64,000 bases of DNA from a virus. A program made the translations under genes and the position numbers. Position 1 is the first letter of the stretch; the number at the start of each line of letters is the position of its first letter. Shown piece after piece: positions 20,082 to 38,891 of the stretch. The stretch lies in the IMG/VR virus record IMGVR_UViG_3300037470_001029, positions 1-64,000 of that record. One strand, given 5' to 3'. The notes beneath the pieces are model-generated. The model ran no database searches, was not told where the DNA came from, and saw only the letters and a program-made list of their open reading frames with translations.

Positions 20082-20551
20082 GCCAGTCCTTGCGCGGCGC
20101 CGGCGACAATCTGCTGGAACTCGATCACAGTAATGTGCACCATGCCGGCCGGCGCCTGCGTAGACCACCCGTCCTCGAGCCTTTGCCCGTAAGGCAAGTT
20201 GTTCGTGATGATGAAATTGCCGCCGGCGACCCTCTCAGGGATCGCGCCGATTATCCTCATCGTCGAGACGTTGCTCTCTGCCGGGCTCGGGTCGATGTCG
20301 GGCAGCTCGTTCGACGGCACCGAGTTGTTCCCCCCCTGCCAGTTCGCGCGGAACCTGCCGCCGACGTAGCCGGGAGGGGGCGGAGACTTCCACAAGTCGC
20401 CGTCTCCGACCGGCGAGAGCTCTACCAGCCGCGTGCCGACGTCGATGATCGTCTTGCGCACCGCGGTGTCCGCGTTCTTCCCCGCCTTGGCGGCGAACGC
20501 CGCGAGCTGAAGGCTGAACGAGTCGGACCGGTTGTAGTAGCCGCGAGCCAT
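20078..20551 (-). CDS. HK97 gp10-like neck protein
   Basis: SPV...GRFRANW...NNLPYGQRLEDGWSTQAPAGMV. Confidence 0.8.
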   Translation of the reverse strand: MARGYYNRSDSFSLQLAAFAAKAGKNADTAVRKTIIDVGTRLVELSPVGDGDLWKSPPPPGYVGGRFRANWQGGNNSVPSNELPDIDPSPAESNVSTMRIIGAIPERVAGGNFIITNNLPYGQRLEDGWSTQAPAGMVHITVIEFQQIVAGAAQGLA

Positions 20552-20874
20552 TATCTCCGCTTCTTCTTGAAGATAGACGACGACTTCTTCTTGGACATCG
20601 GTCCGGTGGCAGGCAAATGCAGCGCCCCGCGGGTAAGCGGATTCGGGCGACGCAGGTCGGGCACGCCGGGACCACGCGTGATTGGATTCGGTCTGCGCAG
20701 GTCAGGCACTCCAGGGCCGCGTCGGATGGGGTTTGGACGCCGCAGGTCAGGAATCCCGGCCCCTCGCGTTATGGGGTTTGGCCGGCGAAGGTCCGGCACC
20801 CCGCGACCGCGGCTCAGCGGATTCCGTTGCCGCGCTACCTTTGCCGCCCTTCTTGCCGCTTCGCTCCAAGCCAT
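20551..20874 (-). CDS. MAWS(D/E)AAR-family basic protein with 15-aa tandem repeats
   Basis: Start ATG 20874 (CAGGAG RBS); MAWSEAARRAA then NPxxRGxGxPDLRRP repeats; Lys-rich tail. Confidence 0.7.
   Translation of the reverse strand: MAWSEAARRAAKVARQRNPLSRGRGVPDLRRPNPITRGAGIPDLRRPNPIRRGPGVPDLRRPNPITRGPGVPDLRRPNPLTRGALHLPATGPMSKKKSSSIFKKKRR
20626..20823 (-). repeat. 45-bp / 15-aa coding tandem repeat, about 4.4 copies
   Basis: NPLSRGRGVPDLRRP NPITRGAGIPDLRRP NPIRRGPGVPDLRRP NPITRGPGVPDLRRP NPLTRG. Confidence 0.9.
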
Positions 20875-25869: not shown

Positions 25870-26895
25870 TTACGCGACGACGGCGAGGTTGCCGATGTGG
25901 CGCAGGCGGGTGAGGGAGCGGCCGTTGTAGACGGCGAACCCGTTGTACCACTCGACGCGGGTCCGATACATCGGAGAAGCCTCCAGCTCGCCCAGGTCGC
26001 GCACGTCGACGCCGCCATTCTGGATGCCCTGGATCGCGCCATCGCCCATGCTCAGCACGTAGATCGACGTCGCCGTCGCGGTGCCGGAGGCCGCGGCCTC
26101 GTTGAAGCCGAGGATCGCCGCCTGCGTGTTGTCCAGGTCCACCGTCAGGATCGGCAGGTCGTTGTAGATGGTGATGCGCTTGCCGAAGGAGTCCTTGTCG
26201 TAGGTGATGAAGCCGCCGACGGTGTAGTTGCGCGCGGCCGCGGTGATGAGCCGGCGCATCGCCTTGCTCATCAGCAGGTGGGTCGGGTTCAGCGTCTGGT
26301 CGATCGCCTCATCGAGCTTGCCGAGCGAGAGCGCGGCGCCGTTGGCCGTCGAGCCTGCGCTGATCACCTGCGCTCCGGTGGCTCGCGTCTGCAGCCCGTC
26401 GAACTCGCGCGGATCGGTGGCGGTGTCGCCCTTGATGAACTTCTTCGTCCACGCCAGCGCCAGGGCGCGGACCTTCATGGCCTCGTGGGTGGAGCGCTGG
26501 GCCATGCCCATCGTGTCGACGATGAACTTGTCGACGTCGAGGTCGCCGCCGGCGATCACCAGCGACTCGGTGAGGGGATTCAGCACGCCGGTCGAGGGCG
26601 TGTAGGCCTCGTTCACCCCGCGGAAGCCGACGCCGGGCAGCGACTCTTCCCGGTTGTACTTCATCGCGTTGCCGGGGATCGTGTCGAAGGGCAGATTGGC
26701 GAGGATGTCGCTGGAGCCCGCGTAGAGCTCGATGATGGCCTGGCGGATCACGTCGCCGGTCTCGAGCTTCGCAGCCTCGACGAGAGTCAGGCCGCCGAGC
26801 ACGACGCCCTGGCGGTACATCAGGTTGTTGAGGAACGCGGAGAGCGCTGCGATGACCAGCATGACCGCGAGATGGAGTTTCTTGAGGGCAGCCAT
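25870..26895 (-). CDS. major capsid protein (with N-terminal leader)
   Basis: Start ATG 26895 (AAAGGAG RBS); LTLVEAAK...LPGVGFRGVNE...GGDLDVDKFI...EFDGL. Confidence 0.88.
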   Translation of the reverse strand: MAALKKLHLAVMLVIAALSAFLNNLMYRQGVVLGGLTLVEAAKLETGDVIRQAIIELYAGSSDILANLPFDTIPGNAMKYNREESLPGVGFRGVNEAYTPSTGVLNPLTESLVIAGGDLDVDKFIVDTMGMAQRSTHEAMKVRALALAWTKKFIKGDTATDPREFDGLQTRATGAQVISAGSTANGAALSLGKLDEAIDQTLNPTHLLMSKAMRRLITAAARNYTVGGFITYDKDSFGKRITIYNDLPILTVDLDNTQAAILGFNEAAASGTATATSIYVLSMGDGAIQGIQNGGVDVRDLGELEASPMYRTRVEWYNGFAVYNGRSLTRLRHIGNLAVVA

Positions 26896-27138
26896 GGAGG
26901 CTCCTTTCGAATCGGTTGAATGGGAAAATCGTTTGCCGCTCGCCCATCCCGGACGATTCGCCGAAGTCCCCGCATCCCGCGGATCTCCAAGCAACTTCTT
27001 TTCTGGGTTCGCAGGCCAAAGCACCTGTCCCAGATGCTTTGGCCTTGACCCCAGTGCGTCGGGAACTCCTAGGCTCTCCCGACCAAGCCTGAGCCGGCAG
27101 CATATACCTGCCGGAGCGGCGCTGTAACCCAGTGCCTT

Positions 27139-28185
27139 TTAGCGCTTGGCCCCTGCCTGCAATTCGCGCGCTTTCGTCAGCCGATCGGTCGGAGACAATC
27201 CCGAGAAATCGGGCGCGCCGCGCACGGTGCGCTTGTCGCCCTTGGCGTCGCCGCCGCTCCCGCCTGCCGGGAACCAGTGTGGGCAGTCCGCGCGGCGCTC
27301 CTCGATCCAGTCCTCGACCGAGAAGGGCGCCTTGCCCTCCTTGTTGAGCACGACCGTCTCGCCGTCCTCCTCGAACTGGACAGCCTTGAGCTCGTCGTTC
27401 AGCGAGAAGATCTGCCTGGCGCGCAGCAGCGCATCCTCGATCGCGCCCGGGAACATCCCCGCGTTGGTCGCCGCGGCGCGCACCTTGTTGTCGATCGCGT
27501 GCTCCATCAGCGTCGAGGCCACCTCCAGCGCGCCGTCGCGCTCCTCGCCCGCGGTCTGCGCCTGGCTCATCAGCTCCTCGCGCATCTTCTGGGTGCGGGC
27601 CTCCATCACCTTGTCGATGTGGCCGGCCTGGATCATCTTGCGCTCTTCCTCGCTGGCGAACTGCGACAGGAGCTCGCGGGTCTTGACCGGGTCGATGCCG
27701 TCGAACTGCTTGAGCTGCGTCTCGTACTCCTCCCTAACCTTCTTGATCTTGTCTTCCGAGTTACGGCGCTCGTTCTCCGCGACCTTCTTGAGCCCGGTGA
27801 CATCTTCGACGTCGACCTTGGAGTGGTCCAGCTTGAACTTCTTCGTCGCCGGGTCCTCGGCGTACCAGGCGCGCATGAACTCCGGCACCGCCTCGAGCTT
27901 GTCGACCTCGGGGGCGATGGCGCCGAGAGACAGCCCGCAGCGCTCGATCCATGACGGCTCGAACGGGTCCGCCGCCATCAGCTTCAGCGGCTGGAGGGGA
28001 CGCCCGAACGTCAGGACGCTGAGCCACAAGCGGCCGGTGAACAGGAGGTAGATCCGCTCGCGGAGCGTCAAGCCCCAGCACGAGATGGCCTGCCCGTTGT
28101 CGCCGACGTGCGCCGGCAACGGGATGTACGGCTTCTGGTCCTTCGCGATCACGATGTTCTGCTGCTTGAATTCGACCGGCTTCAT
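27139..28185 (-). CDS. capsid scaffolding protein with extra N-terminal domain
   Basis: VDKLEAVPE...EDVTGLKK...coiled coil...PHWFPA-GGSGG; position upstream of MCP. Confidence 0.8.
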   Translation of the reverse strand: MKPVEFKQQNIVIAKDQKPYIPLPAHVGDNGQAISCWGLTLRERIYLLFTGRLWLSVLTFGRPLQPLKLMAADPFEPSWIERCGLSLGAIAPEVDKLEAVPEFMRAWYAEDPATKKFKLDHSKVDVEDVTGLKKVAENERRNSEDKIKKVREEYETQLKQFDGIDPVKTRELLSQFASEEERKMIQAGHIDKVMEARTQKMREELMSQAQTAGEERDGALEVASTLMEHAIDNKVRAAATNAGMFPGAIEDALLRARQIFSLNDELKAVQFEEDGETVVLNKEGKAPFSVEDWIEERRADCPHWFPAGGSGGDAKGDKRTVRGAPDFSGLSPTDRLTKARELQAGAKR

Positions 28186-28252: not shown

Positions 28253-28372
28253 CTACTTGCTTTTTTTCTTGCCCTTCTGGAACGGCGGCAGCTTGCCCTT
28301 GCCCTTCGGAGCTTCGGACTTGCCTCTGCTGCCCTTCTGGTAGTTCTTCAGCCCTTCAGGTACCTTTCCCAT
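28253..28372 (-). CDS. 39-aa Lys/Gly-rich peptide
   Basis: Not in ORF track; AGGAGG RBS; MGKVPEGLKNYQKGSRGKSEAPKGKGKLPPFQKGKKKSK*. Confidence 0.6.
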   Translation of the reverse strand: MGKVPEGLKNYQKGSRGKSEAPKGKGKLPPFQKGKKKSK

Positions 28373-28829
28373 GATCGCCTCCTAAGTTTTGCTCGCGCGA
28401 TCCCTGCGCGTAGGGTTCACTTCTGAGAGTATATCCTGGCTTGTTCTCCAGCCGACGCGCCCGCACGTTGTCGGTCGCGTCGAAGCCCAGCTTGCGCAGC
28501 GCGCTGGCCAGCGCCATCGGATCTCCGTGGCTCGCCGCGTAATCGTCTGCCTCGAGTTCTTGCCTGTAGCGGCGCGACGGCGACGCGCGCATGAAGAAGC
28601 AGACCAGCAGGAGATTCTTCCAGATGTGGCGGTGGTGGCGGTGCCCCTCCTCGTGCAGACGCACGGCGTGCCACTCGTCCGGCGTGAGGCGGTCTACGTA
28701 ATCGTCTGGGATGATGATGCGGAAGCCGTTGAAGGATGCGCCCTGCGGATTGGCGTAATACATGCCGACTAGATGCAGCGCGATCCACAAGACCCAGATG
28801 ACGGCGAAGACTGTTCCGGCAATGACCAT
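28356..28829 (-). CDS. M48/M56-like zinc metallopeptidase with N-terminal TM
   Basis: LTPDEWHAVRLHEEGH...RQELEADDYA...LASALRKL. Confidence 0.75.
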   Translation of the reverse strand: MVIAGTVFAVIWVLWIALHLVGMYYANPQGASFNGFRIIIPDDYVDRLTPDEWHAVRLHEEGHRHHRHIWKNLLLVCFFMRASPSRRYRQELEADDYAASHGDPMALASALRKLGFDATDNVRARRLENKPGYTLRSEPYAQGSREQNLGGDHGKGT

Positions 28830-29902
28830 CAGGCGTATCTCGCGCGCAGTTGTCCGACGGTCATTATGCGCGTCCCGTCGAGCGACAGCAACTGCTCCAG
28901 TGTCAGCTTATTGTCGCGCCAAAGGTCTGCGCGCCCGGGTCCGAGCGCCTCGTCCTGCCATGCCTTGCCCTTGCGGCGCAGGAAGGCCTCGAAGTCCATG
29001 CCAGCCGACACGGGACCGTCGCTCGATGCGCGGCGGCCGGGCTTGGCCTCCTCGGCGTCGATCCCTAGCTCCTTGTAGGTCTTCGTCACCGCGACCGCCA
29101 CGCACCGGCAGCCCCAGTGGATGACGCCCGGCCCGCCCTCCCACGCGAGGGAGTGGCCCTGCGGTTTCGGCGGGTCGTCGAGCAGAGTGTACCGCTTGCG
29201 ATCGCGCGGCCCGCAGATCGGGCATGTGTGGACATCGAGCGTCGCGAGCCAGCGGATTCCCGAGAGCGCGTCTGCATTCCTGCGGAATGTCTCCATGCGC
29301 GCCTCATTGGCGGCCGCCTGGATGCTTGTGTGCACGAGCGAGCGGGCATTGCTGCGCGCCACATCCATAACTCCTGGAATGCCGAGCCGCGGCGACCCGA
29401 CAACGCGGCGAACAATTTGTTCGTTGGCCTCGCCTGCGGCGATCCCCTGGCGGACGGCGGTGGAGAACCGCCAGGCGGTGTCCTGCGACTGCCGCAGCCA
29501 CCAGTCGGCCGACGACGAACCCAGCAGCAGAGCGTTGGACGCCACGCGGGCGAGGAACGTCTCCGTAGGCAGGCCGACCGCCAGCACGATGCGGAGCGCA
29601 GGCCCGAGCGCCTGCGCGGTGGTCTCCGCCGTGGCTCGCGCCGCGCCGGCCATCGACGTGCTGAGGACGGCCTGCCCGGTCGCGTAGTAGCGGTCGATCA
29701 CGGCCGTGGCCTGGCGCAGCATCTGTTGCGTGCGCGCCTTGGTGAACTCGGTCAGGTCTCCGCCCGCAAGCGTCTGCGCCAGCTCGGCCTGCAGCCGGTT
29801 GAGTACGGCGAGCACGCGGGCGCGCACGCCGGCCTCGAACCTGAGCAGGTCGATCTGGTGCTCGAGGATGAGGTCGATCAGCGCCTGGTCTATGGTTCCC
29901 AC
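28829..29902 (-). CDS. MuF / SPP1 gp7-like minor head protein
   Basis: ARSLVHT, WLATLDVHTCPIC, IHWGCRC. Confidence 0.85.
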   Translation of the reverse strand: MGTIDQALIDLILEHQIDLLRFEAGVRARVLAVLNRLQAELAQTLAGGDLTEFTKARTQQMLRQATAVIDRYYATGQAVLSTSMAGAARATAETTAQALGPALRIVLAVGLPTETFLARVASNALLLGSSSADWWLRQSQDTAWRFSTAVRQGIAAGEANEQIVRRVVGSPRLGIPGVMDVARSNARSLVHTSIQAAANEARMETFRRNADALSGIRWLATLDVHTCPICGPRDRKRYTLLDDPPKPQGHSLAWEGGPGVIHWGCRCVAVAVTKTYKELGIDAEEAKPGRRASSDGPVSAGMDFEAFLRRKGKAWQDEALGPGRADLWRDNKLTLEQLLSLDGTRIMTVGQLRARYA

Positions 29903-30090
29903 TAGCAAGAGCTCCGCGGTTTAGGCGCAATGATAATGCGGCGATCAGTGACCTGCGTACGCAACCTGAGGCTGTTGTCGCGCCAACCACACTTTGAGGC
30001 TTCGAGAGCATCAAACCTCTCATCGATGTCCTTCATCATGCTCACGGCAAGATTTCTAGCCAACTGCTGAAGTAGCTCTTTGAGCATCAA
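29902..30090 (-). CDS. hypothetical protein
   Basis: 62 aa filling the gap with overlapping start/stop codons. Confidence 0.45.
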   Translation of the reverse strand: MMLKELLQQLARNLAVSMMKDIDERFDALEASKCGWRDNSLRLRTQVTDRRIIIAPKPRSSC

Positions 30091-30805: not shown

Positions 30806-31236
30806 TCCGCCTTCTTCATTCTGTTGGTCATGCCCTCTTGCAGCATCAGGCAGGAGCCGTAGTCGTGGCAGACGAGCCTGCCCTTGAGCATTCCATAGTT
30901 GTACCGCTTGAAGTCGGTCAGGTAAGCGGGCATTCTCTCGGGGAACTTCGTTGCCATCGTCGTGCGGCGCTGCATCAAGATCCCGCCGCTCTGCGAGATC
31001 CAGACACACGGGGCGAACCACCTGGCATGGGGAGTTCCCTTGACCATATCCCACACCTGCCACTCGAAGATATTCTGGAAACGGTCCTTGTTCTGGTCTT
31101 CGATCTTAATAACGATGCCATCGTCGATCGCAGACTCGTACACGTGCCGCGTCAGCCCGGTGCCGATCAGGGCGCCCGTTACGCTGACTGCCAGCTCGTG
31201 CTGAAGCGACGGGTTGTACAGGTGCGTATTGCTCAC
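30793..31236 (-). CDS. minimal protein-kinase-like fold protein
   Basis: GTG start coupled to portal stop; IGTGLTRHVY, VIK, QNIFE, DFKRYNYG, HDYG. Confidence 0.7.
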   Translation of the reverse strand: MSNTHLYNPSLQHELAVSVTGALIGTGLTRHVYESAIDDGIVIKIEDQNKDRFQNIFEWQVWDMVKGTPHARWFAPCVWISQSGGILMQRRTTMATKFPERMPAYLTDFKRYNYGMLKGRLVCHDYGSCLMLQEGMTNRMKKAEWWD

Positions 31237-32795
31237 GCGATCGCCTTGCCAGGCTGGCCGCCGCCGGCCCCCGATTCGCCGAAAATCTCCTGCTGCAGGG
31301 CAAGCGCCGCGGCGTTCTGCTCCTGGATCTGCTGCTGGCGCTCGGCGATGCGCGCCTGCTCCTCTTCGAGGGTGACCTCCTCGGCCACGATCTCGCCGGC
31401 CTTCAGCAGGTTGAACAGCCCCTGGTCGGAGAGGCCCGGCGCGCCCTGCTGCCAGCCGCCCAGCAGCGCGGAGAGCATGGCGGGATCCATCGGGGCCGGG
31501 TAGAAGTCGCGGTTGAGCTCGACGAGAACCTTCGACGGGTCGGCCTCCGCCCACTCGGTGAACCACTTGAGCGCCTGCGTCATGCCGAGCGAGATGGCCT
31601 GCGCCATGCTCGACAGCGTCGACTCCTCGCCCTTGCGGTGGATGCTCGACGACTCGGCTGTCTCCACCGCCTTCTTCTGCGGCTCCAGCATGCGGGCGCC
31701 GAGGATGGCCATCTGCTGCTCCTCGCGGTTGAGCTTGTTCTCGAGGGTGCTCAGGCCCGCCCCGCTGAACTCGACGAAGGACGCCTGCGCCTTCTCGTTG
31801 GCAGAGACGATCGCCGTCTCGCTGCCGATGTAGACGTCCTTGGGGTTCCCCGCGGCGTCGAGCTCACGCTTGAACCCGGCGAGGAACAGGGTGGGCAGCG
31901 CCGTGAAGTGGCAGCCGTGCGCGTAGTCGGCGCTCGTGCGGTAGTGCGCGAGGTTCAGGTCGACCAGATCGATCAGCGGCGGCTCGTCGACGTCGGGCCC
32001 GACCTCGTCGGTGCCCATGATCACGAGCGGGATGAAGCCGAGCTTCATACTGCGCATTTCCGGGTAGATCGGCGGGCCGGGAACGTAGGCCGTCGCATTG
32101 CCCTTCATCCCGGTAGTCGACTTGGTTAGCTGCGGCTTGAACACGCGCTGCCGGTAGACCGGCGACGCGGGGGTGTTGTCGCCGGGGCTCGCCGGCAACT
32201 GCTCCAGGTCGAGCACGCGATACGTGTCCTGCTCCTTGGACTCGAACTCGTCCTTCGGATTGTCGACGCTCTCGGGCTCCTTCAGCACGACCTGCGTCAG
32301 CACCGTCTGGTTGTTGACCCGCCCGGTGCGCCAGTTGATGACCGACTCCGCGCGGTAGAGCAGCATCGTCGGGCGAAGGTTCATCCGCCTGGCGTCGGCC
32401 TGCGTCAGTCCCTTAGGGGCGGTCGGGTAGTCGACCAGCACGGCGATGCGCCCGACCGTCAGCGCGTTCTCGCTCACGTCCTGGAGGAGGAGCTGGAACG
32501 GCTGGCCCGCGGCGTCCACGTCCTTGAGCAGCTCCTCTACCGCGGCAGGGACCTCCACCTTTGGGGGCTTGCGGAACATCATCCCGAGCAGACCGGAGAT
32601 AGTACGCCACGTGGCGTTGTAAAACGTGGAGCGCAGCACCATCGCCTTGTAATCATTGGAGGTCTGCGCCTTTAGCTTCGGCAGGTACTTCTCGCCGGCC
32701 TGGTGCACGGCGTCCTGGCCTGCGGCCACGTCGCGGCAGCGCTCCCACTTCTTGGAAAACTCCTGATACTGCCTGTGCTGAGTATTGACGGGCAT
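31233..32795 (-). CDS. portal protein (DUF4055 family)
   Basis: KYLPK...FYNAT...LNLAHYRTSADY...LGARML; between terL and MuF. Confidence 0.9.
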   Translation of the reverse strand: MPVNTQHRQYQEFSKKWERCRDVAAGQDAVHQAGEKYLPKLKAQTSNDYKAMVLRSTFYNATWRTISGLLGMMFRKPPKVEVPAAVEELLKDVDAAGQPFQLLLQDVSENALTVGRIAVLVDYPTAPKGLTQADARRMNLRPTMLLYRAESVINWRTGRVNNQTVLTQVVLKEPESVDNPKDEFESKEQDTYRVLDLEQLPASPGDNTPASPVYRQRVFKPQLTKSTTGMKGNATAYVPGPPIYPEMRSMKLGFIPLVIMGTDEVGPDVDEPPLIDLVDLNLAHYRTSADYAHGCHFTALPTLFLAGFKRELDAAGNPKDVYIGSETAIVSANEKAQASFVEFSGAGLSTLENKLNREEQQMAILGARMLEPQKKAVETAESSSIHRKGEESTLSSMAQAISLGMTQALKWFTEWAEADPSKVLVELNRDFYPAPMDPAMLSALLGGWQQGAPGLSDQGLFNLLKAGEIVAEEVTLEEEQARIAERQQQIQEQNAAALALQQEIFGESGAGGGQPGKAIA

Positions 32796-33305: not shown

Positions 33306-33661
33306 GGCTGCTGCACCTTGACGCGCAGCTCGCGGTTGACATCGTCCAGCTCAGCCTTGTAGCGGAAGAACTGCTTCAGCTCCCACTGGTTGATCATGCG
33401 CGCGTCGCGCTTTGCCTCCAGCTCGAACACCTTGTCCTCGAGCGAGTTCTTGCGCTGGCGCAGGAACCCCGCGTCGGTGTACGCGCGCTGGGCGGCCAGC
33501 TCTTTTTTGAGCTCCTTCTTCGCCGCGGCGACGGCCTCCTCGGCCCTCTTGACGTCGGCGGCCTTTGCGTAGCGCGCGTCGATCGCCAGGGTGGCAATCA
33601 CGATCGCGGCGACCAAGCTGGCGAGCCACCAGATAGTCTTCTTCACTGCGGGATCGATCAT
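33302..33661 (-). CDS. single-TM coiled-coil protein
   Basis: N-terminal TM followed by charged coiled coil. Confidence 0.6.
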   Translation of the reverse strand: MIDPAVKKTIWWLASLVAAIVIATLAIDARYAKAADVKRAEEAVAAAKKELKKELAAQRAYTDAGFLRQRKNSLEDKVFELEAKRDARMINQWELKQFFRYKAELDDVNRELRVKVQQP

Positions 33662-34371
33662 TGTGGCCTCGCAGTCATCTTTTGCTCGACTGCCGCGCAG
33701 GCCTCACCCTCCTCGTGGATCAGGCGCTCCAGGTCGGCGAGCGGCATGTAGAAGGCGCCGGCCTTGCCCCAGTTGTCGCCCCACGAATTCTCGAGGGTGG
33801 CGAGCGAGCGCGTGGCGTTGATCCCCCGGAGCAGGTAGGCGTGGCCGCCGAGGACCGCGGCGCCCGGCTCGATCTTAACGATCCCCTCGGGATCCGGGTG
33901 CTCGAACGAGCTGTACCAGTTGGTGCCGACGACGCACGGACCGTTGGTCAGCACCCACTCGACCACGGTGGACAGGTCGAACGCCCAGAGGTAGCTCTTG
34001 AGGTGCCCGAGGTCGGTCAGCACTTTGGCGCCGGCGCGCACGCTCGTGCCCCCATCCATGGAAGGGTCCCAGTCGCCCATCGCGGCCTCGGCATCGTTGT
34101 CCGCCCACGGATCGATCGCGACCGCCCTGCGGTAGATGTCGAACGGCGACGGCCCGCTCTTCTCGGTCTGCATCGGCGCGCAGCGCAGGAAGTTCTTCCA
34201 CGCGTGGCCGACGCAGGTGCTGGTCAGGCCCTGGTCGAGCGAGCGCCCGTTGACCCGCCACGTCTTCGCGCTCGGAAGCAGCACCTTGTCCGCGGTGGCG
34301 AGCTTGCGGCGCATCAGGTACTCGCGGTCGCGCGGGTCGACGGCGATCCGGCGGCCCAGTCCCTTGTTCAT
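33658..34371 (-). CDS. papain-family (C1) cysteine peptidase
   Basis: DQGLTSTCVG, GGHAY, ENSWGDNWG. Confidence 0.85.
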   Translation of the reverse strand: MNKGLGRRIAVDPRDREYLMRRKLATADKVLLPSAKTWRVNGRSLDQGLTSTCVGHAWKNFLRCAPMQTEKSGPSPFDIYRRAVAIDPWADNDAEAAMGDWDPSMDGGTSVRAGAKVLTDLGHLKSYLWAFDLSTVVEWVLTNGPCVVGTNWYSSFEHPDPEGIVKIEPGAAVLGGHAYLLRGINATRSLATLENSWGDNWGKAGAFYMPLADLERLIHEEGEACAAVEQKMTARPQ

Positions 34372-34685
34372 AGTTGTCGTCCTCCCAAGCGATGCAGCGG
34401 GTGGTTCTTGAGATAGCCAATCCGCACGCGGCCGTACCTGGCGACGTACTCGATCTGGCCGTTCGCGATCCCCGCGACGCAGTGAACCTCGCCGAGCTGC
34501 TCGTCGGCGAAGACGCAGCGCCGGATCTGCGCGCCATCCAGCATCACGACGGCATAGGAGAAGTAGGGATCGTACGCGGGGTGATCCTTATTCGTCGAGA
34601 TCCTGCGCCCGCGAGGCTGCGAGCCGACGGCGAACGGCAGCAGCGCCGCGGCGGCCGGAAGCTGCACGAAGCGGCGGCGGTTCAC
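34368..34685 (-). CDS. hypothetical protein with twin-arginine-like leader
   Basis: MNRRRFVQLPAAAALLP. Confidence 0.5.
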   Translation of the reverse strand: MNRRRFVQLPAAAALLPFAVGSQPRGRRISTNKDHPAYDPYFSYAVVMLDGAQIRRCVFADEQLGEVHCVAGIANGQIEYVARYGRVRIGYLKNHPLHRLGGRQL

Positions 34686-35005
34686 GCGAGCCCCTTCAGC
34701 GCGTCCTCGAGGTCGTGCGCCTCTTTCGCCTGCCTGTTGCCCTCCCTGGAGACCTGCACGGCGCGGGCGGCCTTGACGAGCCGGCGCACCTTGACGGCGT
34801 GGTCGGCGTCCGCGAGCGCGGCCTTGATCGAAGGCTCGTCGTAGTCGAGCGCCTCGTCGATGATGGCGACGGCCTGGTCCCTGGCCTCGTCGCTGGATGC
34901 CGAGGTGGATAGGCCCGCCACCAGGTCGCGCGCCGCTTTCAGCGCGTTGTGCATCTGCGCGGTGAGCTGGCGGGACGCGGCGAGCTGCAGTTCGGTTTCG
35001 TGCAT
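34682..35005 (-). CDS. hypothetical protein
   Basis: Start ATG 35005 just after terL, AGGAG RBS. Confidence 0.55.
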   Translation of the reverse strand: MHETELQLAASRQLTAQMHNALKAARDLVAGLSTSASSDEARDQAVAIIDEALDYDEPSIKAALADADHAVKVRRLVKAARAVQVSREGNRQAKEAHDLEDALKGLA

Positions 35006-35007
35006 GG

Positions 35008-36291
35008 TCAGACTCCTCTTATGACGACGCGCTCGATGCGGTCGTGGACGATCGGGTGCTCGTAGGCTATCGGGTAGGTCGAGGCGTCGTTCTGATGGTC
35101 GTGCCCGCTCTTCTTGTCGGGCTCGCCGTTCTCGTCGTAGGCCTGGCTCTCGAAGCAGCGCGCCACGGTCGGGCACTCGCGATCGTTGACCCAGAGCCTG
35201 GCGATCTCGAACTGCTTGTTGGTGGCGTTGACGCGGTCCTTCACGGCTGGGTTGGCGTTATCGGCGCGCACCTCGAACCCTGCCTGGTCGAGCAGCGCCA
35301 GGTCGGACTTGCTGGCGTCGACCGTCTCGCGGTTCTTGCCGCTCGGGTCCGGGTAGACGATGATGCGGTGCCCCTCGTCCTTCCAGCGCTCCGTGATGAT
35401 GCGGATCATGTCGGGCGTGTCGAGCACGTCCTTCAGCTCGGCGACCGCGTGCCACCCGTTCGCCCGCGGCACGTAGACCGTCGCGGCCATCTTCGTGACG
35501 TTGAAGTCCATGCCGATCAGCAGCGCCTCGGCGTCCGCGCCATTCTTGCGCGCGCGGATGGTCTCCCTCGACCTGCACCGGACTCGGTCGTAGTTCCTGT
35601 AGACGGTGCCCGCGGTGAGGTTGACGAACTTGCCGTCCAGGTACGCCTGCCGCAGCTCCTCGGTGTAGGCCTCGTAGAGAGACTGGATGTAGTCGTCCGG
35701 CAGGTTCTCCTCGTTGTCGTAGGTCGACGCCTGGACCAAGCCGTAGTTCTCCTTGAGCGCGGGCCGCTCCTCCGGGTCGGAGACGAAGAGCTTGTGCGTC
35801 GCGCGGAAGCCCTCCGGCGTCGTCGTGACGTCGATGCCGTTGCGCAGCCCGGGCCGCTTGATCCGCATGCGCGCCAGGATCTTGCGCCACGCAAGACGGG
35901 CCTTGTTCATCGGCAGCGTGTCGAGTTCGTCGACCAGGGCGTGGCCCACGTTGAAGCCGATGATGGTCTCCGGCTTCTCCATGGAGCGGCAGATCGTCGT
36001 GCCGCGGTAGCGGGCGCCGCTGTAGAAGTGGACCTCCTTGTTGCCCTCCATGGCCTTCGTACGCAGGCCGAACTCGAAAGCGACCTCGTCGATCGTCGGG
36101 TAGAAGATGTCGCGGATAAGCGAGTAGGTCGGCGCGAAGTACCCAGAGTTCACGCGCGGCCACTCGAGGTGGTGGGTGCAGGTCGCCATGCTGCCCGCCC
36201 AGGTCTTGCCCGAGCCGAAGCCCCCGACGTAGGCGCGGTTCTTGGTTTCGAGCGCCAGGAACTCGCACTGCGGGAGGTTTGCGTGGGGCAT
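35008..36291 (-). CDS. terL: terminase large subunit
   Basis: GGFGSGKT Walker A, LVDELD Walker B, TTTPEG, IGMDFN, DHQNDA. Confidence 0.95.
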   Translation of the reverse strand: MPHANLPQCEFLALETKNRAYVGGFGSGKTWAGSMATCTHHLEWPRVNSGYFAPTYSLIRDIFYPTIDEVAFEFGLRTKAMEGNKEVHFYSGARYRGTTICRSMEKPETIIGFNVGHALVDELDTLPMNKARLAWRKILARMRIKRPGLRNGIDVTTTPEGFRATHKLFVSDPEERPALKENYGLVQASTYDNEENLPDDYIQSLYEAYTEELRQAYLDGKFVNLTAGTVYRNYDRVRCRSRETIRARKNGADAEALLIGMDFNVTKMAATVYVPRANGWHAVAELKDVLDTPDMIRIITERWKDEGHRIIVYPDPSGKNRETVDASKSDLALLDQAGFEVRADNANPAVKDRVNATNKQFEIARLWVNDRECPTVARCFESQAYDENGEPDKKSGHDHQNDASTYPIAYEHPIVHDRIERVVIRGV

Positions 36292-36650
36292 CAGAGCTTT
36301 GCCGCCTCGTCCTCTAGCTGCGCAGCTCTCCTCAGATAAGCCCTAGGCTTTAGCCCGCGCTGCGCCAGCCCGCGGAGCTCGGCCGCCTGACGCAGGAGCG
36401 CGTCGCGCCTAGCAGGCTGCGCAGCGGACGCGCGCCTCAGGCCGCCCTTGCCGAACAGCTGAACCCTGACGCGCTCCTGCGCCCTGGCCAGGGCGGCCTT
36501 AGACATCCGGCCGCTCGGAGAGTCGAGCGCGAGCGCATCGGAGAAGGCCCTCGGCCCTCCGCGCTTGGGCCGCAGGCGCCACGGCTTTCCAGCCGCGCGC
36601 CTGCGGCGCATTTCAAGGGCGGCGGCTCGCGCCGCGTCGGACCAGGCCAT
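36291..36650 (-). CDS. MAWSDAARAAA-family Arg-rich protein 5
   Basis: Shared N-terminal tag; TGATG coupling on both sides. Confidence 0.75.
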   Translation of the reverse strand: MAWSDAARAAALEMRRRRAAGKPWRLRPKRGGPRAFSDALALDSPSGRMSKAALARAQERVRVQLFGKGGLRRASAAQPARRDALLRQAAELRGLAQRGLKPRAYLRRAAQLEDEAAKL

Positions 36651-36949
36651 CAGTATCCGTACCTTCTGCGATGCGGATCTTTGGGCCCGTACTTGAGCTC
36701 GAATTTACGGGCTTTTTCCGCGACGATGTTAGCCTTGAGCCGCTTGAGCACCTTCGAGTAACGCTCGACGTTGCGGTTCGCGGCGCCCGCCGGGTAGCGG
36801 CCGCCCACGCCCATCGATTGGAGCTCGCCCAGGTTGCGCTTCGCCGCGGAGATCTGCGCCGCGTAGGAGCGAGGGCCCCTCTTGCGGCCCTTCGCCCTGC
36901 GGCGCCTGGCCTCCGCGGCCGCGGCCCGGGCCGCGTCTGACCAGGCCAC
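36650..36949 (-). CDS. MAWSDAARAAA-family Arg-rich protein 4
   Basis: GTG start with GGAGG RBS; shared tag. Confidence 0.75.
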   Translation of the reverse strand: MAWSDAARAAAAEARRRRAKGRKRGPRSYAAQISAAKRNLGELQSMGVGGRYPAGAANRNVERYSKVLKRLKANIVAEKARKFELKYGPKDPHRRRYGY

Positions 36950-36952
36950 GGC

Positions 36953-37489
36953 TCAGCGCCTCCCGCCGATCGGGCCGAACTCCGCCTGCACCATGCGCCC
37001 GGCGATCACCCTGGCGTGCAAGTTCCTGTACCTGGCGTCGCCGCCCGACCTGCGCGCCTGCGCCCTGGCAGCCTTGAGCGTCCTGGCGAAGACGTCGCGC
37101 CTCTGGAAGACGCCGGGCGCGGCCTCGTGCATCGACTGCGACCGCAGGCCGCGGAGCCTGGCGGCCGCCTCGAGGTGCCTGGCCGAGTCCCTCTTGACCA
37201 GTTGCCCGAGCCTGGCGTGGAGCCTGGCCGTGGCCGCGTACCTGGAGGCGGTCATGCCGCCCATGCCGCCGACCAGCTCGGAGGACGGGTGGCGCGCCTC
37301 GCGCTCCGCCATCGCCAGCAGCGTATTGGACCCGACCCTGGCGCGCAGCCTGGCGCCGTCCTTGCCGGGCGTCGCGAGCAGCCTGGCCATTTCGTCCCGG
37401 TTCTGCCCGACCGTGGGCACCTTGCGCCGCCTGGCATTCCTGCGCCTGGCTTCCAGTGCCGCCGCCCTCGCCGCGTCGCTCCATGCCAT
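36953..37489 (-). CDS. MAWSDAARAAA-family Arg-rich protein 3
   Basis: GGAG RBS; shared tag. Confidence 0.75.
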   Translation of the reverse strand: MAWSDAARAAALEARRRNARRRKVPTVGQNRDEMARLLATPGKDGARLRARVGSNTLLAMAEREARHPSSELVGGMGGMTASRYAATARLHARLGQLVKRDSARHLEAAARLRGLRSQSMHEAAPGVFQRRDVFARTLKAARAQARRSGGDARYRNLHARVIAGRMVQAEFGPIGGRR

Positions 37490-37490
37490 G

Positions 37491-37922
37491 TCAGTTCTCC
37501 CCGGGAGTTCTGCGGCCGGCCCGCCTGGCCGCGGCGCGAACCTTAGAATTTACCTTCGAGCTGTCCCCGCCGAAATTCCTGGCGGCCAGCACGGCGCGCC
37601 TCGCCGCGGCCTTGCGATTGCGGCCGCGCTGCCTGAGGAGTTCTGCCTTGTCGGAGAACCTGCCCGGCGGCCGCACCGCGCGCAGGTCGGAGGGCCTCAG
37701 CGTCTCGACCGGGACTATGCGGCCGCGCGTGCCCTGGACCGCGGCGTGGACGCGGTCGAACCCGCCGGTGTCGTAGTGCGCTTCCCTCACGGTAAACCTG
37801 ATCCCGCGCTCGCCTGGCCCGGGCCTGGCGTATCTGGCCGTCTGGCCTGGCTTTAGCCTCCGCGCGAGGCGGCGTCGCCTCGCCTCCAGTGCCGCCGCCC
37901 TCGCCGCGTCGCTCCAGGCCAT
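37491..37922 (-). CDS. MAWSDAARAAA-family Arg-rich protein 2
   Basis: Start reassigned to ATG 37922 (GAGGAGG RBS); shared tag; possible SH3-like middle (LKPGQTARY...FTVRE). Confidence 0.75.
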   Translation of the reverse strand: MAWSDAARAAALEARRRRLARRLKPGQTARYARPGPGERGIRFTVREAHYDTGGFDRVHAAVQGTRGRIVPVETLRPSDLRAVRPPGRFSDKAELLRQRGRNRKAAARRAVLAARNFGGDSSKVNSKVRAAARRAGRRTPGEN

Positions 37923-37924
37923 AG

Positions 37925-38278
37925 CTAGATCCTCCTCTTCATGCGCCGGACGCGCTCGGCCAGCGTCGAGCTGCCCCAGTGCCGGTCGCGGTGAAAGTTC
38001 CGCGCAGCGGTCGATTGCCGCGCCGAGTCCATCACTTGCGAGGTAGAGCGGCCCTCGACTATCCAGCCGCGGCTCGTGAGGATGCTCTCCCCGGTCTTCT
38101 TGCCCTTCCTGATGGCGCGGATTTTGCGCGCCAGCTCTGCGCGGAACGCGGGCTCGCCGGGTCCGGCGTTGTACTTCGTCAGGCTTCGCAGCGCATGCTG
38201 GGGAAAGCGCTGCTTTGACTTCGAGTGCGCCCTGCGCGCTTCCAGCGCCGCCGCCCTCGCCGCATCTGACCATGCCAT
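37925..38278 (-). CDS. MAWSDAARAAA-family Arg-rich protein 1
   Basis: Starts 4 nt after terS stop; shared tag. Confidence 0.75.
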   Translation of the reverse strand: MAWSDAARAAALEARRAHSKSKQRFPQHALRSLTKYNAGPGEPAFRAELARKIRAIRKGKKTGESILTSRGWIVEGRSTSQVMDSARQSTAARNFHRDRHWGSSTLAERVRRMKRRI

Positions 38279-38282
38279 GGTG

Positions 38283-38891
38283 TCACCCCTTCCGACGCCG
38301 CGCGTCCTTGAACTCGATTGTCACCGCGACGGGAGGCGGGGCCTCGCCGTCGTCCTCTGGCTGCGCGCCCTTGTCCTTGGAGTAGAGGCCGAAGTGCTTC
38401 ATGGCCTGGTCGCGGGCCGCGTGCCTGGCGGGGAACTTGACCTTGGCGGTGGTGACGCTCAGGAGGGTCACCTCGTCCTTCGAGCCCTTCTTTCCCTTCA
38501 AGACCTTAGAAACCTGGTCGACGTCGACGCCCTCTAACTCGAGGCGCACCTCGTCGGGCATGTCCTGCACCCTCTTCAGGGTCCCATCCTCGTTGTACAT
38601 CAGGCCTGGGTCGAAGCGCATCGCCCTGGCGAGCGACCTGATGACCTCCTCCGCGGTGAGGGCAACCATATCCCCAAGTTCTTTGGAGCGGAACTCGATC
38701 ATTTCCTTGACCCAAGGGTCTTTGAGAATCGCGTAGGCGCATTCTCCGGCGGTTTTCGGGCTGTAGCCCACTGCCCTGGCCGCGGCGCTCGCGTTGCGGT
38801 TGTTCGCGAAGTATGCATCCACGAACAAGCGCTTGCGCTCCTGCGACCTAGTCTTTGATGTTCCTGCCTTCGCCCGCTTTGCTGCCGCCAC
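38283..38891 (-). CDS. terS: terminase small subunit
   Basis: FVDAYFANNRNASAAARAVGYSPKTA HTH; first gene of the late arm. Confidence 0.88.
   Translation of the reverse strand: MAAAKRAKAGTSKTRSQERKRLFVDAYFANNRNASAAARAVGYSPKTAGECAYAILKDPWVKEMIEFRSKELGDMVALTAEEVIRSLARAMRFDPGLMYNEDGTLKRVQDMPDEVRLELEGVDVDQVSKVLKGKKGSKDEVTLLSVTTAKVKFPARHAARDQAMKHFGLYSKDKGAQPEDDGEAPPPVAVTIEFKDARRRKG

What the first reader, a model, noticed from the sequence alone, without database searches (positions are those of the whole stretch)
36291..38278. Array of five Arg-rich genes sharing an N-terminal MAWSDAARAAA tag, wedged between terS and terL
Seen: five consecutive, tightly coupled ORFs (99-178 aa), each starting MAWSDAARAAA(L/A)E(A/M)RRR and with no evident similarity downstream. 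All are extremely basic. Two tags are 37/38 nt identical (37452-37489 vs 37885-37922); the others differ mostly at synonymous positions, so the peptide rather than the DNA looks conserved. Known: terS and terL are usually adjacent, and T4 internal proteins use a short shared N-terminal capsid-targeting sequence. Inference: a modular tag-plus-cargo system that addresses variable DNA-binding/condensing or anti-defence proteins to the head or packaging motor, with the tag DNA possibly serving as a recombination point for cassette exchange. I know of no description of this family.
Basis: partly seen in the sequence, partly recalled or inferred. Interest (0 to 1): 0.9.

Follow-up and report, generated by a model that had tools for sequence, protein, structure and literature searches.

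The report
Shared leader peptide on phage head-module genes
Five small, very basic and otherwise unrelated genes wedged between the two DNA-packaging genes of an uncultured phage all begin with the same 17-residue helix, which also heads hundreds of other small phage proteins and most likely loads them into the virus head, though nobody has measured this.

Summary
Five tightly coupled minus-strand genes (117, 143, 178, 99 and 119 aa) lie between terS and terL. All start (M/V)AWSDAARAAA[L/A]E[A/M]RR and have pI 11.4-12.0. Their bodies show no homology by BLAST, phmmer or hhalign.

The tag is selected as a peptide: Ser and Arg switch codon families, and codon identity among the five tags equals the codon-usage expectation.

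The same tag heads 60 distinct ORFs in related uncultured phages. Of these, 39 could be placed, all in the virion morphogenesis gene block, 38 in four head-module slots. A tag profile finds 616 protein clusters. Most of the best 149 are small proteins with the tag at residue 1. Twenty-four carry internal copies, 22 of them only internal, some in prohead-protease-like proteins.

One relative's cargo is ART-fold. Window gene T1 belongs to a conserved helical family.

Best reading (about 0.5): a head-loading address helix for swappable internal or ejected proteins, analogous to the T4 capsid targeting sequence and the phage P1 DarB signal. It is unrelated to them in sequence, and this phage has no detectable prohead protease.

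Loading, cleavage and ejection are untested. Recombination at the tag DNA is not supported. Other agents of this scan reported analogous leaders, with different sequences, on other DNA.

The parts
38283..38891 (-). Small terminase subunit (terS), first gene of the packaging/head operon; its stop lies 4 nt before T1
   Evidence: PF03592 Terminase_2 E 7.2e-20 and phrog_51 E 1.7e-22; junction
37925..38278 (-). T1: tagged gene, 117 aa, pI 11.9; member of the commonest tagged family (conserved blocks R46..A50..R57 and S-T-x-x-R-N)
   Evidence: An iterative HMM on the bodies finds 41 non-redundant relatives among 173 tagged small proteins. Alignment A6. AF2 model with pLDDT 77.6, all-helical, tag helix residues 5-24. 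No fold match in PDB or BFVD
37491..37922 (-). T2: tagged gene, 143 aa, pI 12.0; orphan body
   Evidence: ESM Atlas model pLDDT 0.65 with only sub-0.5 TM resemblance to small beta-barrels such as KOW (a lead only). GC3 0.86
36953..37489 (-). T3: tagged gene, 178 aa, pI 12.0; only its C-terminal third is shared with a tagged gene of relative L011
   Evidence: phmmer to L011 9126-9563 at E 1.6e-8. ESM Atlas model pLDDT 0.49, pTM 0.21, so no confident fold
36650..36949 (-). T4: tagged gene, 99 aa, GTG start, pI 11.4; has an orthologue in relative L011
   Evidence: 77% identity of the body to L011 8830-9126. DNA block 36628-37005 matches L011 8807-9169
36291..36650 (-). T5: tagged gene, 119 aa, pI 12.0; orphan body; its stop overlaps the terL start by 1 nt
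   Evidence: In relative L011 a different tagged gene occupies this slot. A related contig in run X4 also carries other sequence there
35008..36291 (-). Large terminase subunit (terL)
   Evidence: PF03237 E 2.9e-24, PF17289 E 1.9e-10, phrog_2. 57% identical to terminases of cultured Klebsiella and Pseudomonas phages, where the feature listed beside the terminase is in most rows a small terminase subunit
20551..20874 (-). T6: sixth, looser tag (MAWSEAARRAAKVARQRN) on a 107-aa protein with four PDLRRPNP-type repeats, between the head-closure and neck genes
   Evidence: Neighbours are phrog_161 head closure and phrog_169 Neck1. GC3 is only 0.68
31233..32795 (-). Portal protein; candidate partner of the tag (inferred only)
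   Evidence: PF13264 E 8.9e-42 and phrog_145 E 1.3e-134
28829..29908 (-). MuF-like head morphogenesis protein, 359 aa, without an effector extension; candidate partner (inferred only)
   Evidence: PF04233 E 1.8e-11. phrog_241 E 2.4e-91, matching profile positions 12-357 of 679
27139..28185 (-). Scaffolding protein; candidate partner (inferred only); carries no copy of the motif
   Evidence: phrog_206 E 2.7e-31; motif scan of the window
25870..27024 (-). Major capsid protein; candidate partner (inferred only)
   Evidence: phrog_212 E 1.6e-82 and PF20911 E 2.3e-11

Best explanation
The 17-18 N-terminal residues (M-A-W-S-D-A-A-R-x-A-A-x-E-x-R-R) form a portable amphipathic helix. It most likely acts as an address that recruits small, very basic, interchangeable proteins into the assembling procapsid.

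Proposed steps:
1. The tagged genes sit inside the late packaging/head operon and are translationally coupled to terS and terL, so they are made together with head proteins. The gene arrangement is shown; co-expression is inferred.
2. One conserved face of the helix (W3, A7, A11, with A10, A14, R8 and R15 nearby) binds a procapsid-internal partner: scaffold, the inner capsid surface, or portal/MuF. This step is inferred and the partner is unknown.
3. The cargo stays in the head with the DNA, which its high positive charge would favour. Inferred.
4. The cargo leaves with the DNA at infection and acts early in the host. An ADP-ribosyltransferase-fold cargo in relatives is the main hint. Inferred.

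In other phage lineages the same motif is written several times inside long proteins that carry prohead-protease-like domains. That fits a motif marking head-internal modules.

The slots between terS, terL, portal, MuF and scaffold behave as hot spots where tagged cassettes come and go.
For: 1. Selection acts on the peptide. Across 60 tagged ORFs, Ser4 uses AGC, AGT and TCN codons and Arg8 uses AGR and CGN codons. E13 (40 of 60), R15 (56 of 60) and R/K16 (51 of 60) are conserved although the search pattern did not require them. Within the window, codon identity is 0.442 against 0.447 expected.

2. One tag, many bodies. The 60 ORFs fall into 52 BLAST clusters. 173 non-redundant tagged small proteins fall into 127 clusters, 112 of them singletons.

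3. Different predicted architectures behind the tag. T1 is all-helical. P0107, which equals L011 4426-4773, is alpha/beta. Its first 20 listed Foldseek rows are all ART-superfamily entries (Tpt1/KptA, Arr, NarE; E 8e-3 to 0.14, TMq 0.38-0.56). It also has a sub-threshold ART-PolyVal hit, E 0.0038.

4. Position. All 39 of the 60 ORFs that could be placed lie co-directionally in the virion morphogenesis block. 18 lie upstream of terL, 9 between terL and portal, 6 just upstream of MuF, 5 between MuF and scaffold, and 1 among the neck genes.

5. Breadth. A tag profile finds 616 clusters at E<=1e-3. Of the best 149 hits other than the window's own protein, 126 carry the motif within the first three residues. 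24 carry internal copies, and 22 of these have only internal copies, up to five per protein.

6. Pfam on all 149 gives DUF2213 in 4, Mu-like_Pro in 1 and a 2H phosphoesterase in 1, plus weak hits below the curated cut-offs (E 0.003-0.005) to Peptidase_S78, ART-PolyVal, DUF3990 and DZR_2 in 1 each. In three DUF2213 proteins a motif copy starts about 20-30 residues after the protease-like domain.

7. P0006 lies between MuF and an acidic scaffold-like ORF followed by an MCP-like gene.

8. The tag is predicted helical: residues 5-24 with pLDDT 86-90 in T1, and residues 5-17 in P0107.

9. Precedents exist. The T4 CTS is the only feature shared by diverse internal proteins (PMC3012670, passages read). 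The first 30 residues of P1 DarB suffice to load a reporter protein (PMC9024508, passages read).
Against: 1. There is no experimental datum: no virion proteome, no cultured phage with the tag, and no listed RNA run.

2. tblastn of the tag against 50,697 cultured phage records found nothing, possibly because of the low-complexity filter.

3. The binding partner is unknown, and the window's scaffold, MuF, portal and MCP carry no copy of the motif.

4. No prohead protease of four families (S78, DUF2213, Mu-like_Pro, ClpP) was detected in this genome. T4-style removal of the tag therefore has no support here.

5. The bodies of T2, T3 and T5 have no confident fold or homologues, so they may not be enzymes or effectors at all.

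6. T6 lies among neck genes, outside the four head-module slots.

7. 21 of the 60 tagged ORFs are in loci where no head gene could be recognised, so their position is unknown.

8. Gene position in a late operon also fits roles in assembly or packaging that need no encapsidation.
Confidence: 0.5

Rival explanations
1. The tag is itself a nucleic-acid-binding arginine-rich helix. The proteins are DNA-binding or charge-neutralising proteins, packed with the genome or acting on DNA or RNA, and the shared N-terminus is the common binding arm rather than an address.
For: All tagged proteins are strongly basic: median pI 11.5 and K+R 22% over 60 ORFs, and pI 11.4-12.0 for the window's five. The tag ends in R-R-(R/H/K), and the basic run continues into the body. 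DNA is the one partner common to all the phage lineages that carry the motif. T3 has no confident fold.
Against: The most conserved positions are W3 and a stripe of alanines, together with D/E5 and E13. That pattern looks more like a helix-packing face than a phosphate-binding one. The motif recurs next to prohead-protease-like domains. An enzyme-fold cargo (ART) would not need a DNA arm. No DNA- or RNA-binding family matched.
Confidence: 0.15
2. The motif is chiefly a maturation or processing signal. It marks where a head protease cuts polyproteins into modules, and on free-standing genes it is a propeptide to be removed.
For: In the 24 proteins with internal copies, the residues just before the W are similar among the repeats of one protein, for example ..t-v-k-a|..x-x-N-A| and ..G-K-A|. 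Several of these proteins carry protease-like domains (DUF2213, Mu-like_Pro). The T4 CTS is removed by the prohead protease (recalled; the passages read do not state it).
Against: This genome has no detectable prohead protease of four families, yet it keeps six tags. The conserved part is a 15-residue helix face, far longer than known cleavage motifs. Cleavage and addressing are not exclusive, so this is partly a sub-case of the best explanation.
Confidence: 0.1
3. The tag addresses the proteins to a common host structure, such as the ribosome, RNA polymerase, nucleoid or membrane, rather than to the capsid. The bodies deliver different activities there during late infection or after entry.
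For: There is one conserved helix on many different bodies. An ART-fold cargo suggests modification of host proteins or nucleic acids. The bodies of the polyvalent-protein repertoire act on the host (PMC5512222, passages read).
Against: This does not explain why the motif is repeated in proteins with prohead-protease-like domains that sit in the protease/scaffold slot. Nor does it explain why all 39 placeable genes lie in the virion morphogenesis block.
Confidence: 0.1
4. The five genes are simply fast-diverging tandem duplicates of one small structural or regulatory gene, in which only the N-terminal helix stays under constraint.
For: They form a tandem array, have similar sizes and composition, and all are basic. 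T1 and T2 share a short A-A-R-N-F string near the C-terminus. The T2 and T3 tags are 45/51 nt identical.
Against: There is no body homology at profile level: hhalign probability is 0.1-2.1% for all 10 pairs. Different predicted architectures follow the same tag in the wider family. T1, T3 and T4 each have their own relatives elsewhere that do not match the other four. The same tag occurs inside unrelated long proteins.
Confidence: 0.05
5. The conserved element works at the DNA level, as a recombination or cassette-exchange site or a translational start element, and the peptide is a by-product.
For: Homology between the window and its close relative L011 (terL 85.5% identical in DNA) breaks at the tags. 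T5 is replaced by a different tagged gene, and T1 and T2 are absent. A related contig in run X4 shows the same replacement. T2 and T3 share an identical run of 32 nt.
Against: Codon identity among the five tags equals the codon-usage expectation: 0.442 against 0.447, sd 0.057. Pairwise identity over 51 nt is mostly 33-39 of 51. Across phages every synonymous codon family is used. The motif also occurs in mid-protein, where no start or cassette boundary exists.
Confidence: 0.05

Closest known systems
Capsid targeting sequence (CTS) of phage T4 internal proteins IPI-III and Alt
   Same: A short N-terminal peptide is the only thing shared by a diverse, fast-changing set of small proteins (PMC3012670, passages read). 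The passages read say these proteins are packed in the head and include counter-defence proteins, and that the T4 tag can carry foreign proteins into the head. T4 Alt is a packaged ADP-ribosyltransferase (PMC5512222, passage read), and an ART-fold cargo also occurs here in relatives.
   Different: No family of Pfam, PHROGs or NCBIfam matched the five. The phage type differs: a MuF plus scaffold head module with no detected prohead protease. The genes sit inside the terS-terL-portal-MuF-scaffold operon. The motif also occurs internally in long proteins. Packaging and cleavage are untested here.
N-terminal packaging signal of phage P1 DarB (Dar antirestriction system)
   Same: An N-terminal stretch of at most 30 residues suffices to direct a heterologous protein into the head (PMC9024508, abstract and passages read).
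   Different: In P1 the authors found no consensus among the N-termini of the Dar proteins (same paper). Here one clear consensus is shared by six genes of one phage and by hundreds of proteins elsewhere. DarB is 250 kDa, whereas these proteins are 50-228 aa.
MuF-fused polymorphic toxins and phage polyvalent proteins (Jamet 2017, PMC5576092; Iyer 2017, PMC5512222)
   Same: Variable effector modules are encoded in the head module next to portal and MuF and are thought to be delivered with the DNA (PMC5512222, passages read; PMC5576092, listing and abstract start only). The domain repertoire overlaps in relatives: ART-PolyVal-like, 2H phosphoesterase, and an HExxH peptidase-like module (weak).
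   Different: In those systems the effector is covalently fused to MuF, to portal, or within one giant protein. Here the window's MuF is a bare 359-aa protein, and the cargos are free-standing genes that share a short tag. 'Arginine-rich' occurs nowhere in the main text of PMC5512222, and none of the 12 of 23 passages shown for the terms I searched describes such a tag. Its supplementary files could not be seen.
Cargo-loading (targeting) peptides of encapsulins
   Same: A short terminal peptide shared by different cargo proteins directs them into an HK97-fold shell, and foreign proteins fused to it are also loaded (PMC11866011 and PMC8346489, abstract starts only).
   Different: Encapsulins are protein compartments defined by self-assembling shells (abstract starts). 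This is a tailed phage with terminase, portal and tail genes. No sequence relation was tested or is claimed.
Analogous shared leaders reported by other agents of this scan on other phage DNA (e1-5929311, e1-5847337, e1-5892931, e1-5847325, e1-3721142, e1-5954365)
   Same: They report the same architecture: several unrelated head-module proteins of one uncultured phage start with one arginine-rich helix. One note also reports the tag mirrored in a protease-scaffold polyprotein. These are AI notes and are unchecked.
   Different: A look-up by this tag's sequence found no other window that shares it. I tested none of their claims.

Membership tests
T4-type capsid targeting sequence / internal proteins | A short N-terminal peptide shared by otherwise unrelated small proteins of one phage | tested here: met
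   13 invariant columns in the first 16 residues of the five. Bodies are unrelated by BLAST, phmmer and hhalign.
T4-type capsid targeting sequence / internal proteins | Sequence relationship to the T4 CTS or to T4 internal-protein families | tested here: not met
   No significant PHROGs, Pfam or NCBIfam family for any of the five at E<=0.01. That PHROGs contains the T4 proteins is my recollection, not a call result.
T4-type capsid targeting sequence / internal proteins | A prohead protease that removes the tag after loading | tested here: inconclusive
   No match in the 72-kb record to Peptidase_S78, DUF2213, Mu-like_Pro or CLP_protease at E<=1. Peptidase S77 (T4 gp21) and S49 were not searched. 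This tool's first look missed a MuF in another record. Cleavage itself cannot be tested here.
T4-type capsid targeting sequence / internal proteins | Proteins are physically present in the head and ejected; the tag suffices to load a foreign protein | not testable with these tools
   The phage is uncultured. No listed sequencing run is RNA, and no proteome exists.
MuF polymorphic toxins / polyvalent proteins | Effector domain covalently fused to MuF, to portal, or within one multidomain protein | tested here: not met
   The window's MuF is 359 aa and matches only positions 12-357 of the 679-position phrog_241 profile. The five are separate ORFs with their own starts and stops.
MuF polymorphic toxins / polyvalent proteins | Bodies belong to the known effector repertoire (ART-PolyVal, 2H, MPTase and others) | tested here: inconclusive
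   None for the window's five. In relatives: ART-PolyVal below the cut-off (E 0.0038 and 0.0066) plus ART-fold Foldseek matches; a 2H phosphoesterase at E 1.5e-13 in one long motif-bearing protein; and a weak HExxH-peptidase match (E 0.002).
MuF polymorphic toxins / polyvalent proteins | Encoded within the head morphogenesis module | tested here: met
   38 of the 39 placeable tagged ORFs lie in head-module slots and the other among the neck genes.
Encapsulin cargo-loading peptide | The shell is a dedicated protein compartment rather than a virus | tested here: not met
   terS, terL, portal, tape measure and neck genes are present.
T1 family (tag + R..A..R block + S-T-x-x-R-N block), defined here | Three conserved blocks in a protein of roughly 80-140 aa (78-137 aa in alignment A6) | tested here: met
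   Met for T1 only. An iterative HMM on the bodies recovers 41 non-redundant members. R46, A50, R57, R93 and N94 are invariant in 29 sequences. T2-T5 are not recovered.

The most novel reading that the evidence does not exclude
W-S-[D/E]-x-A-R-x-A-A-x-E-x-R-R is a widespread, portable 'head-interior address helix' used by several unrelated tailed-phage lineages. It is written in two ways: as the first residues of free-standing cassette genes, and as punctuation between modules of long proteins with protease-like domains. It would recognise a conserved feature of procapsids or of the packaged DNA. Phages would then keep a swappable arsenal of injected proteins in the gaps between their packaging and head genes, without MuF or portal fusions and, in this phage, without a prohead protease. 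If true, it would also be a ready-made tag for loading chosen proteins into many non-model phage heads.
Probability: 0.35. Interest if true: 0.85.

Novelty: new variant of a known kind. Interest (0 to 1): 0.66.

Why it matters
Proteins carried in phage heads and injected with the DNA act before any phage gene is expressed. They are therefore prime candidates for counter-defence and host takeover. Outside T4, P1, P22, N4 and the jumbo phages, however, we cannot recognise them from sequence.

A conserved, easily searched leader could mark such proteins in hundreds of uncultured phages: 616 protein clusters at 50% identity. That would turn 'hypothetical small basic proteins' into a defined, testable class. 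It would expose hot spots of accessory-gene exchange inside the supposedly conserved packaging/head operon. It could also give a generic loading tag for engineering phage heads.

The finding also links free-standing cargo genes with long multi-motif proteins that carry prohead-protease-like domains. This suggests how such systems may evolve, by splitting or fusing modules at the motif.

Tried and rejected
1. Known families for the five. Pfam, PHROGs and NCBIfam gave nothing significant.

2. Fold of T1. Foldseek against PDB and BFVD gave no match better than E 1.4. A profile of alignment A6 against PDB sequences gave nothing.

3. Folds of T2 and T3. I used only the ESM Atlas's own models, which are of low confidence. 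The KOW or beta-barrel resemblance of T2 has TM below 0.5 and is a lead only.

4. Cargo guesses made by eye found no support:
- 'ParB-like' for L010 5450-5974 and 'PD-(D/E)xK nuclease-like' for L011 8350-8829 and L020 909-1379 got nothing from Pfam, NCBIfam or PDB sequence search. I use 'nuclease-like' only as a label.
- The HExxH module of P0011 has only a weak match, E 0.002.

5. Cultured phages. tblastn of the 32-aa tag found nothing, and the low-complexity filter may be the cause. For P0006 only the DUF2213-like N-terminal part matched, and P0007 gave one short hit. I therefore could not link the tag to any virion proteome.

6. MuF co-occurrence. A search for PF04233 in five tag-bearing records returned 0 of 5. 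One of those records does hold a MuF homologue by tblastn (L032), so this search is too insensitive and I dropped the line.

7. DNA-level homogenisation of the tags: rejected.

8. Expression. No RNA holder is listed. The laid runs are contigs only. Small-share runs X2-X4 are not used as evidence of habitat.

9. Literature. No paper held any of the motif strings. Searches on capsid targeting sequences, polyvalent proteins with MuF, virion-packaged anti-defence proteins and shared N-terminal cargo returned no description of this tag in the listings I saw. Only open-access text is searched. The domain tables of PMC5512222, held off-paper, might mention the motif.

10. Rows dropped before counts. 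Of 80 regex matches I dropped all matches in nine genome loci judged to be chance (L038, L042, L044-L047, L049, L051, L052). I judged them by eye: mostly GTG starts, no R-R after the tag, and short or embedded frames. I also dropped ORFs under 50 aa and exact duplicates, leaving 60. Positions 2-8 and 10-11 of the tag were fixed by the search pattern, so their invariance in alignment A3 is by construction. The protein library behind one search is clustered at 50% identity, which inflates apparent body diversity.

Full report
**What is there**

The window is the first 64 kb of a 72,037-bp virus record that CheckV rates complete. Public contigs close it into a circle: one 71,475-nt contig runs off both sides of the stretch that I laid.

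On the minus strand the packaging/head operon starts with terS (38283-38891; PF03592 E 7e-20). It continues with terL (35008-36291; PF03237 and PF17289).

Five ORFs lie between them:
- T1, 37925-38278, 117 aa
- T2, 37491-37922, 143 aa
- T3, 36953-37489, 178 aa
- T4, 36650-36949, 99 aa, GTG start
- T5, 36291-36650, 119 aa

Spacers are 1-4 nt or 1-nt overlaps, and each start is preceded by a purine-rich stretch. GC3 is 0.81-0.95, like the bona fide genes around them.

All five start (M/V)AWSDAARAAA[L/A]E[A/M]RR. A back-translated pattern finds them 5 times, against 0 in 100 shuffles. pI is 11.4-12.0. A looser sixth copy heads a 107-aa repeat protein at 20551-20874, between the head-closure and neck genes.

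**Are the bodies related?**

No, at any level I could test.
- BLASTP on residues 21-end gives none of 10 pairs.
- phmmer on residues 19-end gives none.
- hhalign on residues 19-end, using family alignments where I had them, gives probabilities of 0.1-2.1% for all 10 pairs.

T1, T3 and T4 each have their own relatives elsewhere, which do not match the other bodies.

**Peptide or DNA?**

Peptide. Among the five tags, codon identity at same-residue positions is 61 of 138 (0.442). The expectation from the genome's own codon usage is 0.447, sd 0.057.

Only T2 and T3 stand out, at 45 of 51 nt.

Across 60 tagged ORFs from many phages, Ser4 uses both the AGY and TCN codon families, and Arg8 uses both AGR and CGN. 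E13 (40 of 60), R15 (56 of 60) and R/K16 (51 of 60) are conserved although my search pattern did not ask for them.

On an ideal helix (100 degrees per residue; my arithmetic) W3, A14, A7, A11, R15 and R8 fall within one arc of about 140 degrees. This suggests a single binding face.

**The tag elsewhere**

Pattern scans gave 29 viral-contig stretches (12 with the stricter pattern) and 19 genome-contig stretches. After dropping chance hits, ORFs under 50 aa and duplicates, 60 distinct tagged ORFs of 50-228 aa remain. Their median pI is 11.5, and their bodies fall into 52 BLAST clusters.

Among the genome-contig stretches, clear tag-type ORFs occur on a contig binned with a Betaproteobacteria MAG, on one binned with a Gallionella MAG, and on one binned with a Bathyarchaeia MAG. 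All three carry terminase and portal genes.

**Where tagged genes lie**

I mapped terS, terL, portal, MuF, scaffold and MCP in the loci by tblastn and jackhmmer with the window's proteins. Of the 60 ORFs, 39 are in loci with at least one recognisable head gene. All 39 are co-directional with the head genes:
- 18 upstream of terL: window 5, L009 5, L011 3, L020 2, L028 2, L037 1
- 9 between terL and portal
- 6 just upstream of MuF
- 5 between MuF and scaffold
- 1 (T6) among the neck genes

The other 21 are in loci where nothing could be mapped.

The window's closest relative, L011, has a terL that is 85.5% identical in DNA. It keeps T4 (body 77% identical) and the tail of T3. It lacks T1 and T2, and it has a different tagged gene in T5's place. 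DNA homology stops at the tags. A related contig in run X4 shows the same replacement. The slots are therefore hot spots of cassette turnover.

**A profile search**

An HMM of the first 32 residues of the 60 ORFs was searched against 1.84 billion representative proteins. It found 616 at E<=1e-3. I examined the best 149 hits other than the window's own T1.
- 126 have the motif within the first three residues. They include 124 small proteins (46-178 aa) and two, of 178 and 350 aa, that also carry an internal copy.
- 24 carry internal copies. 22 of these have only internal copies, up to five per protein, and range from 148 to 1,895 aa.
- One further protein has a motif-like string that my regular expression missed.

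Pfam on all 149 gives the following:
- DUF2213 in 4
- Mu-like_Pro in 1
- a 2H phosphoesterase in 1
- weak hits below the curated cut-offs (E 0.003-0.005) to Peptidase_S78, ART-PolyVal, DUF3990 and DZR_2, in 1 each
- nothing for the rest

In P0006, P0014 and P0016 a motif copy begins about 20-30 residues after the DUF2213 domain.

P0006 lies between a MuF gene and an acidic scaffold-like ORF followed by an MCP-like gene. That is the protease/scaffold slot. It also matches phrog_530, head maturation protease, at E 1.3e-6.

Pooling all sets gives 173 non-redundant tagged small proteins in 127 body clusters, of which 112 are singletons. The library is clustered at 50% identity, which inflates this diversity.

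**What the bodies are**

T1 belongs to the largest body family: 28 members by BLAST and 41 by iterative HMM. It has invariant R46, A50, R57, R93 and N94.

Its AF2 model is all-helical (pLDDT 77.6), with the tag as a confident helix at residues 5-24. It matches no known fold.

T4 has one orthologue. T3 has a partial one and no confident fold. T2 and T5 are orphans.

In relatives, one tagged family has an ART-fold body (RLFHGT...; P0107, which equals L011 4426-4773, just upstream of MuF).
- The AF2 model has pLDDT 74.
- The first 20 listed Foldseek rows are all ART-superfamily entries (Tpt1/KptA, Arr, NarE). E-values are only 8e-3 to 0.14, and TMq is 0.38-0.56.
- The Pfam ART-PolyVal hit is below threshold.

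Other guesses that I made by eye were not confirmed (see Tried and rejected).

**Mechanism**

The most economical reading is an address helix that brings interchangeable, very basic proteins into the procapsid. They would stay there with the DNA and leave with it.

What is shown:
- selection on the peptide;
- one tag on many unrelated bodies;
- confinement to the virion morphogenesis block wherever position could be read;
- the helical prediction;
- recurrence of the motif next to prohead-protease-like domains.

What is inferred: binding to a procapsid partner, encapsidation, ejection, and any host-side activity.

Two points count against a simple copy of the T4 scheme. This genome shows no prohead protease of four families. 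Its own scaffold, MuF, portal and MCP carry no copy of the motif. The rivals are scored in their own section.

**Comparison with what is known**

The T4 CTS is described as the only conserved feature of a diverse set of internal proteins, and it can load foreign proteins (PMC3012670, passages read).

The first 30 residues of P1 DarB load a reporter protein, but the Dar proteins share no consensus (PMC9024508, passages read).

MuF fusions and polyvalent proteins deliver effectors by covalent linkage (PMC5512222, passages read). 'Arginine-rich' occurs nowhere in that paper's main text, and the passages I saw describe no such tag.

Encapsulins use terminal cargo-loading peptides on HK97-fold shells (abstract starts).

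The present tag works like these in architecture. It is not a member of any of them by sequence, and it fails or leaves open several defining features (see Membership tests).

I found no description of the motif. These searches cover open-access text only, and supplements are closed.

Other agents of this scan reported analogous leaders with different sequences on other phage DNA. I did not test their claims, and they did not change my reading.

**Verdict**

This is a new, sequence-distinct and apparently widespread variant of the 'capsid-targeting tag on diverse internal proteins' idea. It still awaits any experiment.

Noticed in passing
window 32802-35176 (-): About 2.4 kb holding five ORFs lies between terL and portal. 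One is a papain-family peptidase-like protein (33658-34371; phrog_16701 E 1.8e-47; PF00112 just below its cut-off). Relative L011 has no counterpart, and there terL and portal are adjacent. This is a second accessory hot spot in the same operon. None of these ORFs carries the tag.
   Followed up: partly
window 28356-28829 (-): A 157-aa protein with an N-terminal hydrophobic stretch and an HEEGH motif sits between MuF and scaffold (weak Peptidase_M48 hit, E 1.3e-4). It is conserved in that position in L011, L016 and L048. A membrane-type zinc peptidase inside a head module is unexplained.
   Followed up: partly
L016 4193-4351 (-): A 52-aa tagged ORF ends by overlapping the start of the M48-like gene (3816-4196). 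It could be a tagged version of that peptidase split by a frameshift, or a separate small gene.
   Followed up: no
window 20551-20874 (-): The sixth tagged protein consists mostly of four tandem 15-residue repeats (..G-V-P-D-L-R-R-P-N-P-I-T-R-G..). Its stop overlaps the start of the Neck1 gene. That gene matches only positions 120-257 of its 275-position PHROG profile.
   Followed up: no
window 37454-37914: The public assembly of the likely source run breaks at the T3 and T2 tags. A separate 461-nt contig (depth 14.9, against 13 for the main contig) covers T2. The main 71,475-nt contig closes the genome into a circle. Exact repeats of the tag can therefore fragment assemblies of such phages.
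   Followed up: partly
P0011 (350 aa, representative library): This protein has two tags: tag, then an 80-aa T1-like module, then a second tag, then a module with HEYGH. The last module weakly matches the zinc-peptidase region of lethal-factor chains (E 0.002). It looks intermediate between free-standing cargos and the long multi-motif proteins.
   Followed up: partly
L009 3519-5197 (-): Another uncultured phage has an array of five tagged genes directly upstream of terL and a sixth between terL and portal. No terS was recognised, and a primase-like gene lies next to the array on the opposite strand. This mirrors the window's layout.
   Followed up: partly
window 25870-27024 (-): The longest MCP ORF has about 78 residues ahead of the region matched by phrog_212 and an internal Met at residue 44. 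Either the true start is later, or there is an N-terminal extension.
   Followed up: no
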